Shown piece by piece: positions 5,167-5,577 of a stretch of DNA of 64,000 nt. Position 1 is the first letter of the stretch; every line of letters starts with the position of its first letter. The notes beneath the pieces were generated by a model, which saw only the letters and a program-made list of their open reading frames with translations, did not search any database and had not been told where the DNA came from. Origin of the DNA: Candidatus Saccharimonadales bacterium (GTDB lineage Bacteria; Patescibacteriota; Saccharimonadia; Saccharimonadales; EFPC-124); assembly GCA_050730875.1 (NCBI GenBank), contig JBOHNX010000001.1:489972-553971 (forward strand), written 5' to 3'. The translations under genes were made by a program, and so were the position numbers.

Positions 5167-5194
5167 TTGATTATTTGTAAATTTATGGTATTAT
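5167..5194 (+). promoter_or_regulatory. AT-rich sigma70-like promoter with extended -10 upstream of the WhiB-like gene
   Basis: TTGATT - 16 nt - TGgTATTAT. AGGAGG Shine-Dalgarno at 5222-5227. Confidence 0.45.
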
Positions 5195-5232
5195 ATTAGC
5201 GTCAATCTGCCCGAATTTCCTAGGAGGATATG

Positions 5233-5472
5233 ATGGATTGGCGACACAGGGCCGCCTGCCGCGACGAGGACCCGGAGCTGTTCTTCCCGATCGGCACATC
5301 CGGCCCGGCACGTCTACAGACCGAACAGGCCAAGGCCGTATGCCGGCGATGTTCGGTGACCGGCGACTGCCTACGGTGGGCGCTCGATACCGGCCAGGAC
5401 GCCGGCGTGTGGGGTGGCATGACCGAGGACGAACGCCGCGCGCTGAAAAGGCGCGGCGGTCTACGCGTGTAA
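5233..5472 (+). CDS. whiB: WhiB-family (Wbl) Fe-S transcription factor
   Basis: MDWRHRAAC...(C-x27-C-x2-C-x5-C), GVWGG turn, and a basic C-terminal tail RRALKRRGG. About 68 percent G+C by hand count. The ATG at 5233 is preferred over 5230 because of Shine-Dalgarno spacing. Confidence 0.85.
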   Translation: MDWRHRAACRDEDPELFFPIGTSGPARLQTEQAKAVCRRCSVTGDCLRWALDTGQDAGVWGGMTEDERRALKRRGGLRV

Positions 5473-5543
5473 TGCCAGCCCGGCACAACAGGGGAGTCTT
5501 TAGTGCCACGCTAAAGGCTCCCCCTACCTACTACGAAAGATTG

Positions 5544-5577
5544 AAGCCCCTGGCGCAACAAGCGCACAGGGGCTTTT
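5544..5577 (+). terminator. rho-independent terminator after the WhiB-like gene
   Basis: AAGCCCCTG-loop-CAGGGGCTT followed by TT. A second long hairpin (GGGGAGTCTTTAG/CTAAAGGCTCCCC) lies just upstream. Confidence 0.55.

What the first reader, a model, noticed from the sequence alone, without database searches (positions are those of the whole stretch)
5167..5577. Canonical WhiB-family (Wbl) regulator in a non-actinobacterial-looking genome, driven by an AT-rich local-style promoter
The 79-aa product has every Wbl hallmark. These are MDWRHRAAC at the N-terminus, four Cys spaced C-x27-C-x2-C-x5-C, the GVWGG turn, and a basic tail (RRALKRRGG).

To my knowledge Wbl proteins are essentially confined to Actinobacteria and their phages. 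The gene is about 68 percent G+C by my hand count, against a backbone that looks close to 45-50 percent. Yet it is preceded by an AT-rich TTGATT-16-TGgTATTAT promoter and an AGGAGG Shine-Dalgarno, and followed by its own terminator.

If the genome is a Saccharibacteria-type epibiont of Actinobacteria (my inference), this is a plausible host-to-symbiont or phage-mediated transfer that has been wired into local expression signals. It could interact with a host-like sigma factor or sense redox or NO.
Basis: partly seen in the sequence, partly recalled or inferred. Interest (0 to 1): 0.65.

Follow-up and report, generated by a model that had tools for sequence, protein, structure and literature searches.

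The report
Actinobacterial WhiB1 gene inside a Saccharimonadales genome
A soil Saccharibacteria (CPR) genome carries an intact iron-sulfur regulator gene (WhiB1 type) that the literature confines to Actinobacteria and their phages, apparently captured from a Micromonosporaceae-like actinobacterium, which points to the epibiont's likely host group.

Summary
ORF 5233-5472 (+) encodes a 79-aa protein that scores 95.4 bits against Pfam Whib (cutoff 23.6). It has C9-x27-C37-x2-C40-x5-C46, the GVWGG turn and the aromatic patch W3/F17/F18/W60.

It belongs to the WhiB1/WblE subclass. It is about 76% identical to M. tuberculosis WhiB1 and 85-90% identical to Micromonosporaceae-type chromosomal WhiB1.

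The window is from a 556-kb contig of a GenBank MAG labelled Candidatus Saccharimonadales, where the protein is already auto-annotated as WhiB family (MGH7196672.1).

- **Composition:** the gene is 68% GC (GC3 78%) in a 50% GC genome.
- **Extent of homology:** DNA similarity to actinobacterial whiB1 starts at the ATG and ends at the stop codon.
- **Second import:** the RluA gene 600 bp away is also actinobacterial, 81% identical to Frankia.
- **Setting:** both genes lie in a 2.5-kb segment between two tRNA genes that carries tRNA-fragment scars.
- **Relatives:** the nearest relative lacks both genes at the syntenic site.
- **Assembly check:** an independent assembly confirms the left junction.

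Horizontal acquisition from Actinobacteria is well supported. Function is inferred, as an Fe-S, NO/redox-sensing binder of sigma region 4. The copy lacks the second basic tail motif that Mtb WhiB1 needs for DNA binding. I found no paper reporting a Wbl in CPR bacteria.

The parts
5167..5194 (+). Sigma-70-type promoter-like site: TTGATT, 16-nt spacer, TGgTATTAT (extended -10)
   Evidence: Found by the scan (9/12 matches, TG present). The -10 resembles local boxes such as TATGGTATACT before ftsA. Consensus match only; hits of this kind occur at chance density.
5222..5227 (+). Shine-Dalgarno AGGAGG, 5 nt upstream of the ATG at 5233
   Evidence: Read from the sequence. Only 7 of 48 window genes have any SD-like motif.
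5233..5472 (+). whiB1/wblE-type gene, 79 aa (GenBank MGH7196672.1)
   Evidence: Pfam Whib 95.4 bits. M. tuberculosis WhiB1 6ONO 132 bits, about 76% id. 85-90% id to Micromonosporaceae-type WhiB1. 68.3% GC. DNA homology to actinobacterial whiB1 covers 5233-5468 only, at 80-82%.
5491..5523 (+). Perfect 15-bp hairpin downstream of whiB
   Evidence: RNA fold. Unique in the window.
5543..5580 (+). GC-rich hairpin followed by UUUU: likely intrinsic terminator of whiB
   Evidence: RNA fold, (z = -7.2 for 5470-5600). Not called by the strict terminator scan.
3816..4619 (-). RluA-family pseudouridine synthase: a second actinobacterial import (GenBank MGH7196670.1)
   Evidence: Pfam PseudoU_synth_2. 60% GC, GC3 68%. 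Apart from the self-hit, the best hits are Actinobacteria: Frankia sp. Cr1 81%, Pseudonocardiaceae 74%. 80.6% nt identity to 63-66% GC contigs over 3835-4655.
4760..5161 (+). 133-aa hypothetical protein (MGH7196671.1), native-type, directly upstream of whiB
   Evidence: 48.8% GC. No Pfam or PHROG hit. The closest named relative is in another Saccharimonadales MAG, at 44% id.
5615..5839 (-). 74-aa hypothetical ORF (MGH7196673.1), convergent with whiB
   Evidence: ORF list. Annotated in the MAG. No Pfam or PHROG hit.
3534..3610 (+). tRNA-Val(TAC): left border of the variable segment
   Evidence: ARAGORN; Rfam.
3809..3832 (+). Direct repeat (23/24) of the tRNA-Val 3' end, overlapping the RluA stop codon. 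Looks like an integration or recombination scar.
   Evidence: the repeat finder family D6; sequence.
5945..6061 (+). Split duplicate of the 5' half of tRNA-Leu(GAG): 5945-5966 (21/22) and 6044-6061 (18/18), separated by a 77-nt insert
   Evidence: the repeat finder families D7 and D8; sequence.
6096..6184 (+). tRNA-Leu(GAG): right border of the variable segment
   Evidence: ARAGORN. The same tRNA is conserved next to the FAD oxidase in relative L004.

Best explanation
This is a real, intact WhiB1/WblE-subclass gene that a soil Saccharimonadales (Saccharibacteria/CPR) bacterium acquired horizontally from an actinobacterium. The donor was most likely Micromonosporaceae-like and plausibly its host or a close neighbour. 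Only the ORF was retained: the actinobacterial leader was replaced by an AT-rich spacer with an extended -10 promoter and a strong SD, and the last 5-6 codons were lost.

The gene sits in a 2.5-kb tRNA-Val to tRNA-Leu segment. That segment bears tRNA-fragment scars and also holds a second actinobacterial import, RluA.

Inferred mechanism: the protein binds a [4Fe-4S] cluster through C9/C37/C40/C46. Through its aromatic patch (W3, F17, F18, W60) it docks on region 4 of the primary sigma factor, which lets the epibiont tune transcription to NO, redox or Fe-S status.

It lacks the second basic tail motif (Mtb K79/R81) needed for DNA binding by apo-WhiB1. It therefore probably acts mainly as a sigma-bound holo-protein rather than as a DNA-binding repressor.

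Shown: identity, origin, integrity and genomic setting. Inferred: cluster binding, the sigma partner and the physiological role.
For: **Family and subclass**
- Pfam Whib 95.4 bits.
- Mtb WhiB1 scores 132 bits, against 60 bits or less for WhiB2/3/4/7.
- All 47 columns invariant among 16 WhiB1-type sequences are retained.

**Host genome**
- Exact protein matches to a Candidatus Saccharimonadales MAG on a 556-kb contig.
- The FAD oxidase neighbour is 77-79% identical to Saccharimonadales MAGs.
- PepP, SBP5, tRNA-Leu, FADox and tRNA-Leu are syntenic with L004.

**Foreign origin**
- 68% GC against 50% for the window; GC3 z = +3.7.
- 90% cluster-mates are Actinoplanes, Micromonospora, Plantactinospora and Verrucosispora.
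- The closest gene (89% aa, 82% nt) lies in the canonical actinobacterial whiB1 neighbourhood (DAG kinase, PdtaS, anti-sigma/sigma, SodN). That contig's sulfite reductase is 85-88% identical to Rugosimonospora.
- Homology is confined to the ORF.
- No whiB at the syntenic site in L004, nor in about 40 kb of other Saccharimonadales DNA.

**Not an assembly artefact**
- Logan contig SRR27067773_108229 equals window 3571-5280 with 0 mismatches. It spans tRNA-Val, RluA, hyp133, the AT-rich spacer and the first 48 nt of whiB.

**Integrity and selection**
- dN/dS is 0.05-0.08 against the nearest genes. Window-specific codon changes are 20 synonymous and 5 non-synonymous.

**Mechanistic basis from the literature**
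- The aromatic patch and sigmaA4 H516-P517 interface (PMC13013590, PMC6954389).
- Tail residues K72, R73, R74, K79 and R81 are needed for DNA binding (PMC3390391).
- A 1-76 construct still forms the sigma complex.
Against: - The right-hand junction (5473-6095) could not be confirmed in an independent assembly. The Logan contig stops inside whiB at 5280.
- dS to the closest sampled actinobacterial gene is 0.9-1.5, so no sampled lineage is the direct donor. The 'host' label is inference.
- RluA's best named hits (Frankia, Pseudonocardiaceae) are not the same family as WhiB's (Micromonosporaceae).
- No expression data are available.
- The MAG's sigma factor is not in the window, so compatibility is untested.
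'Rare in the lineage' rests on composition, identity, literature and a handful of loci.
- The AF2 model was low-confidence (pLDDT 53).
Confidence: 0.8

Rival explanations
1. The gene came from a mobile copy, an actinophage, prophage or plasmid-borne WhiB1-like gene, rather than from a host chromosome. It may have arrived by uptake of lysed-cell DNA or through a phage able to inject into both partners.
For: - IMG/VR (pro)viral contigs carry WhiB1-subclass genes up to 82% identical, outside the chromosomal whiB1 neighbourhood.
- L021 has a DUF5131 (phage Gp37/Gp68-type) neighbour.
- Actinobacterial plasmids carry copies up to 79% identical.
- Only the ORF is retained, so no flank reveals the source.
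Against: - Chromosomal Micromonosporaceae-type copies are closer (85-90%) than any viral (82% or less) or plasmid (79% or less) copy.
- All 1,002 matches among deposited phage genomes are below 60% identity.
- There are no phage genes or integrase in 3611-6095.
- The co-located RluA import is a housekeeping-type gene.
Confidence: 0.2
2. The gene is a recent, selectively neutral passenger. It is intact only because too little time has passed for it to decay, and it has no role in the Saccharimonadales cell.
For: - Little amelioration: GC3 78.5% against 86% in the nearest genes, with GC->AT 13 against AT->GC 8.
- It is absent from the relatives examined.
- The C-terminal tail is truncated.
- It lies in a scarred, variable inter-tRNA segment.
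Against: - The 5' region is not donor-like. It provides a -35/extended -10 and an optimally spaced AGGAGG, which suggests recruitment for expression.
- All invariant family residues are intact.
- There are no frameshifts or stops, and window-specific changes are 20 synonymous to 5 non-synonymous.
Confidence: 0.2
3. This is an assembly or binning chimera: an actinobacterial read cluster was wrongly stitched into a Saccharimonadales contig.
For: - whiB1 is highly conserved at the DNA level among co-occurring Actinobacteria, which invites graph tangles.
- The Logan contig terminates at 5280 inside the gene.
- The right junction is unverified.
Against: - The left junction (AT-rich spacer plus 48 nt of whiB) is identical in an independent assembly.
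- Homology starts exactly at the ATG behind a well-spaced SD and ends at a stop codon. Two graph jumps would not produce that.
- Both flanks are native-type: hyp133 upstream, and tRNA-Leu fragment copies downstream that match the adjacent native tRNA.
- The contig is 556 kb.
- The sequence is at most 82% nt identical to any sampled actinobacterial gene.
- The RluA import lies wholly inside the Logan contig.
Confidence: 0.04
4. WhiB is an old, vertically inherited component of this Saccharibacteria lineage.
For: None found. This rival is kept only because a lineage-wide survey was not possible.
Against: - 85-90% identity to Micromonosporaceae proteins, and membership of the same 90% cluster.
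- 68% GC in a 50% GC genome.
- Absent at the syntenic site of L004.
- The literature places Wbl only in Actinobacteria and their phages.
Confidence: 0.02

Closest known systems
Mycobacterium tuberculosis WhiB1 (Rv3219; PDB 6ONO/6ONU/5OAY), with Streptomyces WblE and Corynebacterium WhcE as its orthologues
   Same: - About 76% identical over residues 1-75 (132 bits).
- Same four Cys ligands, GVWGG turn, aromatic patch W3/F17/F18/W60 and first basic motif K72-R73-R74.
- Predicted four-helix layout.
   Different: - It is encoded in a Saccharimonadales (CPR) genome rather than an actinobacterium.
- It ends at residue 79 and lacks the second basic motif (Mtb 78-TKAR-81) required for DNA binding by apo-WhiB1 (PMC3390391).
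- It is not in the whiB1 chromosomal neighbourhood of DAG kinase, PdtaS and SigH/RshA.
- It has different expression signals.
Micromonosporaceae chromosomal WhiB1 (Micromonospora, Plantactinospora, Actinoplanes, Verrucosispora; Rugosimonospora-like metagenomic contigs)
   Same: - 85-90% amino-acid and 80-82% nucleotide identity.
- Same 90% sequence cluster.
   Different: - Substitutions L27R, V30T and S64T.
- A tail 5-6 residues shorter.
- GC3 about 8 points lower.
- No shared flanking DNA.
Actinobacteriophage and plasmid Wbl proteins (for example WhiBTM4, and WhiB1-subfamily phage Wbls in PMC13013590)
   Same: These are also Wbl genes outside their normal chromosomal setting, taken up by a genome that exploits actinobacterial cells. 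Phage Wbls bind sigmaA4 in a His516-dependent way.
   Different: - Sequence identity is much lower: below 60% for deposited phages, up to 82% for IMG/VR contigs and up to 79% for plasmids.
- Here the recipient is a cellular epibiont, not a virus.
Previously described gene acquisitions by Saccharibacteria (arginine deiminase system, PMC8764695; monoderm-type T4SS, bioRxiv 10.1101/2025.01.22.634366)
   Same: All are examples of CPR genomes gaining genes from Gram-positive or monoderm bacteria.
   Different: - Those are older, lineage-wide acquisitions of metabolic or secretion modules.
- This is a young, barely ameliorated import of a lineage-restricted transcription factor.
- Jaffe et al. noted a lack of evidence for transfer between cultured Saccharibacteria-host pairs (PMC8406219).

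Membership tests
WhiB-like (Wbl) family, Pfam PF02467 | Match to the family profile above the curated threshold | tested here: met
   95.4 bits against a 23.6 cutoff, full-length model match 1-65/65. Also PHROG WhiB families, up to 92 bits.
WhiB-like (Wbl) family, Pfam PF02467 | Four conserved Cys ligands C-Xn-C-X2-C-X5-C | tested here: met
   C9, C37, C40 and C46, aligned to Mtb WhiB1 C9/37/40/46.
WhiB-like (Wbl) family, Pfam PF02467 | Gly-rich beta-turn G[V/I]WGG | tested here: met
   G58-V-W-G-G62; the columns are invariant in the alignment.
WhiB-like (Wbl) family, Pfam PF02467 | Aromatic patch for sigmaA region-4 binding (AP1-4 = W3, F17, F18, W60 in WhiB1; PMC13013590) | tested here: met
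   All four residues are present and aligned. Actual binding was not tested.
WhiB-like (Wbl) family, Pfam PF02467 | Binds a [4Fe-4S] cluster | not testable with these tools
   The ligands are present. A class-V aminotransferase that looks like a cysteine desulfurase lies in the window at 49034-50185.
WhiB-like (Wbl) family, Pfam PF02467 | Binds region 4 of the primary sigma factor through the H516-P517 pair | not testable with these tools
   No sigma-70 gene was found among the window ORFs scanned. The MAG's rpoD could not be fetched.
WhiB-like (Wbl) family, Pfam PF02467 | Taxonomic restriction to Actinobacteria and actinobacteriophages. This is a descriptive feature of the family, not a structural one. 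| tested here: not met
   The gene is encoded on a 556-kb Candidatus Saccharimonadales contig. This exception is the point of the finding. The gene is nevertheless of actinobacterial descent.
WhiB1 / WblE subclass | Closest to WhiB1 rather than to WhiB2-7 | tested here: met
   132 bits to Mtb WhiB1, against 60 (WhiB2 type), 57 (WhiB3), 47 (WhiB4) and 27 (WhiB7). The nearest homologues sit in the conserved whiB1 neighbourhood.
WhiB1 / WblE subclass | First C-terminal basic motif (Mtb 72-KRRN-75) | tested here: met
   K72-R73-R74-G75 is retained.
WhiB1 / WblE subclass | Second C-terminal basic motif (Mtb 78-TKAR-81; K79 and R81 are required for apo-WhiB1 DNA binding). This is a conserved functional feature, not one that defines descent. 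| tested here: not met
   The protein ends ...GGLRV at residue 79, whereas donor-type proteins continue (L)RAHSA/L. It is therefore a tail-truncated derivative of a WhiB1 gene.
Horizontally acquired gene in a genomic islet | Compositional anomaly relative to the host genome | tested here: met
   68.3% against 50.2% GC; GC3 z = +3.7.
Horizontally acquired gene in a genomic islet | Phylogenetic incongruence: nearest relatives lie in another phylum | tested here: met
   Every other listed homologue with an organism name, and every fetched contig context, is actinobacterial. The gene groups with Micromonosporaceae.
Horizontally acquired gene in a genomic islet | Absence from related genomes at the syntenic site | tested here: inconclusive
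   It is absent in L004, the only relative with the site covered, and in L082. The sample is far too small for a lineage-wide statement.
Horizontally acquired gene in a genomic islet | tRNA-adjacent location with direct-repeat scars | tested here: met
   The tRNA-Val 3' end is repeated at 3809-3832. The tRNA-Leu 5' half is duplicated at 5945-5966 and 6044-6061.
Horizontally acquired gene in a genomic islet | Integrase, transposase or other mobility gene | tested here: not met
   None in 3611-6095. This fits recombination or natural transformation, or a degraded element.

The most novel reading that the evidence does not exclude
The epibiont uses the host-derived, tail-less WhiB1 against the host. 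The protein keeps the Fe-S and sigma-binding modules but lacks the DNA-binding tail. If delivered into an attached Micromonosporaceae-like host cell, for example through the Patescibacteria T4SS-like or pilus apparatus, it could compete with the host's essential WhiB1 for sigmaA region 4. That would reprogramme host transcription, much as phage Wbl proteins interfere with host Wbls.

A milder version: the epibiont's own RNA polymerase has become Wbl-responsive, so parasite transcription tracks the same NO/redox cues as the host.
Probability: 0.05. Interest if true: 0.85.

Novelty: new member of a known kind. Interest (0 to 1): 0.55.

Why it matters
1. **An exception to the family's range.** It is a documented exception to the textbook statement that Wbl proteins occur only in Actinobacteria and their phages. 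It offers a natural test of whether the Wbl to sigma region-4 mechanism works with a non-actinobacterial (CPR) RNA polymerase.

2. **A clue to the host.** Hosts of environmental Saccharibacteria are mostly unknown. Two barely ameliorated actinobacterial genes (WhiB1 of Micromonosporaceae type, RluA of Frankia/Pseudonocardiaceae type) give a testable clue to the host group. They are also concrete evidence of gene flow from Actinobacteria to an epibiont, a kind of evidence previously reported as lacking for cultured pairs (PMC8406219).

3. **A practical caveat.** whiB is used as a marker to call phages 'actinophages' (bioRxiv 10.1101/2023.05.30.542503). Cellular non-actinobacterial carriers weaken that rule slightly.

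Tried and rejected
- **Exact look-ups of the WhiB and the 74-aa ORF** in the contig index found nothing. The right junction therefore stayed unverified.
- **Metagenome scan anchored on the FAD oxidase** was swamped by a low-complexity pattern (KKAKKAEK) and returned only 25-29% relatives.
- **Genome-collection scan** gave only two close relatives.
- **NCBIfam** gave no hit for the WhiB.
- **AlphaFold2** with a 26-sequence alignment gave pLDDT 53. I did not run fold searches because low-confidence models give meaningless matches, and 76% identity to a solved structure is better evidence.
- **Relaxed Rfam search of 3400-6500** found only the two tRNAs plus chance-level hits.
- **Downstream hairpins** are not a repeated element in the window.
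- **Direct repeats bracketing the whole islet:** none found. The tRNA-fragment repeats are local scars only.
- **Other GC3 outliers** (63251-63724 and 28693-29523) were considered as further imports. They are featureless hypotheticals, so I did not pursue them.
- **Phage origin from deposited phage genomes** is rejected; all matches are below 60% identical.
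Full report
**1. What is in the sequence**

The window contains an ORF at 5233-5472 (+). A second in-frame ATG at 5230 lies only 2 nt after the SD and is an unlikely start. The 79-aa product is MDWRHRAACRDEDPELFFPIGTSGPARLQTEQAKAVCRRCSVTGDCLRWALDTGQDAGVWGGMTEDERRALKRRGGLRV.

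It matches Pfam Whib (PF02467) over the whole model at 95.4 bits, E 3e-27, against a cutoff of 23.6. It also matches several phage WhiB PHROGs.

Against solved structures it is clearly of the WhiB1 subclass. It scores 132 bits and about 76% identity to M. tuberculosis WhiB1 (6ONO, 5OAY). The scores for the other subclasses are 60 (WhiB2 type), 57 (WhiB3), 47 (WhiB4) and 27 (WhiB7).

In an alignment with 15 close homologues, all 47 invariant columns are kept. These include C9, C37, C40, C46, W3, F17, F18, W60 and G58-VWGG-62.

The peculiarities of this copy are L27R, V30T, S64T and a C-terminus 5-6 residues shorter than in the homologues.

**2. Signals around the gene**

- **Promoter-like site.** The scan finds TTGATT, a 16-nt spacer and TATTAT at 5167-5194, with a TG extension. 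Such hits are not enriched over shuffled sequence, so this is a plausible promoter and nothing more.
- **SD.** AGGAGG at 5222-5227 is 5 nt from the ATG.
- **Downstream structure.** The RNA folds into two strong hairpins, 5491-5523 and 5543-5576. The second is followed by UUUU, and z = -7.2 for the region. The strict terminator scan did not call it.
- **Comparison with other genes.** Only 7 of 48 window genes have an SD-like motif. By contrast, 20 of 48 have a TAnnnT box ending 4-13 nt before the start codon, a leaderless-style layout.

So the extended -10 of whiB (TATGGTATTAT) looks local; compare TATGGTATACT before ftsA. Its roughly 30-nt SD-containing leader is a minority style in this genome.

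**3. Which genome this is**

The window is a bacterial chromosome. It carries uvrA, uvrC, uvrD (with an intein), alaS, metS, obg, pgk, tpiA, ddl, ksgA and five tRNAs.

The FAD-linked oxidase 900 bp from whiB has native composition. Its only close matches among 185,579 species genomes are two Candidatus Saccharimonadales MAGs, at 77-79% aa identity.

Four consecutive proteins are exact matches to GenBank proteins MGH7196670.1 to MGH7196673.1. They are RluA, the 133-aa hypothetical, the WhiB and the 74-aa hypothetical. The source is 'MAG: Candidatus Saccharimonadales bacterium', on a 556,385-bp contig. The WhiB is already auto-annotated there as 'WhiB family transcriptional regulator'.

**4. Evidence that the gene is foreign, and its likely source**

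*Composition.* The gene is 68.3% GC (GC3 77.5-78.5%), against 50.2% for the window and 32% for the spacer just upstream. GC3 is 3.7 sd above the mean of 48 window genes.

*Nearest relatives.*
- The best database hits are 85-90% identical. Apart from the window's own GenBank entry, every hit or cluster member that carries an organism name is actinobacterial: Micromonospora, Salinispora, Plantactinospora, Actinoplanes, Verrucosispora, Frankia and Actinophytocola.
- The protein falls in the same 90% cluster as the Micromonosporaceae proteins.
- A neighbour-joining tree places it at the base of that group.
- The two closest genes whose contigs I could fetch (89% aa, 80-82% nt) lie on 69-72% GC contigs in the classical whiB1 neighbourhood: DAG kinase upstream, with PdtaS, an anti-sigma/ECF sigma pair and Ni-SOD nearby.
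- The sulfite reductase on the best contig is 85-88% identical to Rugosimonospora, a member of the Micromonosporaceae.

*Extent of homology.* DNA homology begins exactly at the ATG and ends at '...CGC GTG|TAA', five codons before the donor-type stop. Neither flank is shared.

*Age of the transfer.*
- Amelioration is slight: GC3 is 78.5% against 86%, with GC->AT 13 against AT->GC 8.
- dS to the nearest sampled gene is 0.9-1.5.
- I infer that most of this divergence lies within Actinobacteria, in an unsampled donor lineage, and that the transfer itself is comparatively young.

**5. The neighbourhood**

*A second import.* The RluA-family gene at 3816-4619 (-) is 60% GC. Apart from its own GenBank entry, its best hits are Actinobacteria: Frankia sp. 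Cr1 at 81%, Pseudonocardiaceae at 74%, then Pseudonocardia and Streptomyces. Its DNA is 80.6% identical to 63-66% GC contigs over 3835-4655.

*A native-type gene between them.* The 133-aa gene is 48.8% GC. Its closest named relative, at 44% id, is in another Saccharimonadales MAG. That locus has no whiB.

*The segment as a whole.* Everything lies between tRNA-Val (3534-3610) and tRNA-Leu-GAG (6096-6184).
- A 23/24 copy of the tRNA-Val 3' end sits at 3809-3832 and overlaps the RluA stop codon.
- The 5' half of tRNA-Leu is duplicated at 5945-5966 and 6044-6061.
- No integrase or phage gene is present.

*The relative L004.* The PepP, SBP5, tRNA-Leu(CAG), FAD oxidase and tRNA-Leu(GAG) backbone is conserved there. 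RluA, the 133-aa gene and whiB are absent, and other high-GC ORFs occupy the tRNA-adjacent positions.

I read the segment as a recombination or integration hot spot that has repeatedly taken up foreign, mostly high-GC DNA.

From my own knowledge, not tested here: Saccharibacteria are naturally competent and feed on host-derived nucleic acids. That would supply a route without any mobile element.

**6. Could it be an artefact?**

- The Logan assembly of run SRR27067773 contains a 1,710-bp contig identical to window 3571-5280. It covers the tRNA-Val end, RluA, the 133-aa gene, the AT-rich spacer and the first 48 nt of whiB. The RluA import and the left whiB junction are therefore reproduced by a different assembler.
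- That contig stops inside whiB. This is expected where many co-occurring Actinobacteria share near-identical k-mers.
- I could not find an independent contig for the right junction.
- A chimera would need two graph jumps landing exactly on a start codon behind a well-spaced SD and on a stop codon. It would also need a sequence that is at most 82% identical to any sampled actinobacterial gene.

I put the chimera explanation at about 4%.

**7. Route of transfer**

- Deposited phage genomes hold only distant WhiBs, all below 60% identical with the best at 47%.
- IMG/VR (pro)viral contigs carry WhiB1-subclass genes up to 82% identical, outside the chromosomal neighbourhood. One sits next to a DUF5131 phage-type gene.
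- Actinobacterial plasmids carry copies up to 79% identical.

Chromosomal copies are closer, so a chromosomal source is favoured. A mobile intermediate is not excluded.

**8. How it most likely works**

*Established for WhiB1.*
- The four Cys hold a [4Fe-4S] cluster.
- The holo-protein binds region 4 of the primary sigma factor. The contact is hydrophobic, built from W3, F17, F18 and W60 around sigmaA H516-P517.
- NO nitrosylates the cluster and dissociates the complex.
- The apo or nitrosylated protein binds DNA through K72, R73, R74, K79 and R81.
- Sources: PMC6954389, PMC13013590, PMC3390391, PMC5741622.

*Shown here.* The window's protein keeps every cluster and sigma-contact residue and the first basic motif. 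It lacks the second one.

*Relevant precedent.* A WhiB1 1-76 construct still forms the sigma complex.

*Inferred.* In the Saccharimonadales cell the protein is an Fe-S, NO/redox-sensitive accessory of the primary sigma factor. Its direct DNA binding is weakened or lost.

*Purifying selection.* dN/dS is 0.05-0.08, and window-specific changes are 20 synonymous against 5 non-synonymous. This fits continued function, but it cannot be assigned specifically to the post-transfer branch.

*Untested.* Cluster assembly was not tested, although a gene resembling a cysteine desulfurase is at 49034-50185. Compatibility with the MAG's sigma-70 was not tested because the gene is not in the window. Expression was not tested.

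**9. Comparison with what is known, and novelty**

Reviews and a 2026 structural and phylogenetic study state that Wbl proteins occur exclusively in Actinobacteria and actinobacteriophages (PMC6282962, PMC13013590).

Full-text searches for WhiB together with Saccharibacteria, Patescibacteria or candidate phyla radiation returned no report of a Wbl in these bacteria.

The protein itself is an ordinary WhiB1 derivative and is already named as such by automatic annotation. What is new is its carrier, its truncated tail, and the pairing with a second actinobacterial gene in a scarred tRNA islet. I classify it as a new member of a known kind.

**10. Limits**

- This is one MAG, and one junction is unverified.
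- Donor identity is inferred from imperfect matches, and the two imports point to different actinobacterial families.
- Function is entirely inferred.

Noticed in passing
window 3683-3699, 6257-6273, 11662-11678 (degenerate copy at 5964-6012): A palindrome, AACTGCCAGTGGCAGTT, forms part of a ~49-nt repeat. It lies at a fixed ~72 nt downstream of three tRNA genes (Val, Leu-GAG, Leu-CAG), each time after a terminator-like hairpin. There are 7 strand-wise matches against 0.16 expected. Its nature is unknown; it could be a tRNA-linked repeat, an att-like site or a small RNA.
   Followed up: partly
window-wide (48 gene starts): Only 7 of 48 genes have an SD-like motif. In contrast, 20 of 48 have a TAnnnT (-10-like) box ending 4-13 nt before the start codon, often with a TG extension. 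This suggests that leaderless-style starts dominate in this Saccharimonadales genome.
   Followed up: partly
window 3816-4619 (-): The RluA-family pseudouridine synthase is itself an actinobacterial import. It is 81% identical to Frankia sp. Cr1, 60% GC, and its DNA is 80.6% identical to 63-66% GC contigs, including 36 nt upstream of its ATG.
   Followed up: yes
window 56493-59717 (-): The UvrD/PcrA helicase (1074 aa) is interrupted by an intein (Pfam Intein_splicing / Hint) between the N-terminal helicase domain and the UvrD_C domain.
   Followed up: no
window 54789-55937 (-), with 50990-54652: An RpfB-like protein (DUF348, G5 and Rpf-type transglycosylase domains) lies beside PCC, ksgA, metS and tatD. 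This is the Gram-positive metS-tatD-rpfB/yabE-ksgA arrangement, at native GC, so it is probably vertical rather than imported.
   Followed up: no
window 35402-37600 (-): A fused nitroreductase-family and YcaO cyclodehydratase protein (732 aa), an architecture typical of azoline-forming RiPP (TOMM) machinery. A precursor peptide and partner genes were not searched for.
   Followed up: no
window 44040-45932 (-): The alanyl-tRNA synthetase ORF is only 630 aa, which is short from my own knowledge of bacterial AlaRS; length was not compared here. Pfam matched only tRNA-synt_2c and tRNA_SAD.
   Followed up: no
L004 9000-9500 and 11700-13400; L004 13800-14100: The related Saccharimonadales MAG (SMAG_U8748) has different 60-70% GC patches around the same FAD oxidase / tRNA-Leu(GAG) site, including a 527-aa ORF. 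This suggests the site is a recurrent landing place for high-GC DNA. Their origin was not determined.
   Followed up: no
L021-L081 (IMG/VR loci): Sixty-one (pro)viral contigs encode WhiB relatives. Many are WhiB1-subclass copies, up to 82% identical to the window protein and up to 80% over shorter aligned stretches, on 65-74% GC contigs. Only one of the 61 contains a chromosomal whiB1 neighbour (a PdtaS-like hit on L063). L021 sits next to a DUF5131 (Gp37/Gp68-type) gene.
   Followed up: partly
window 5280 / Logan contig SRR27067773_108229: The independent assembly breaks 48 nt into whiB, and the next recovered contig starts at 6157 inside tRNA-Leu. The stretch 5281-6156 has no independent support in the indexed assemblies.
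   Followed up: partly
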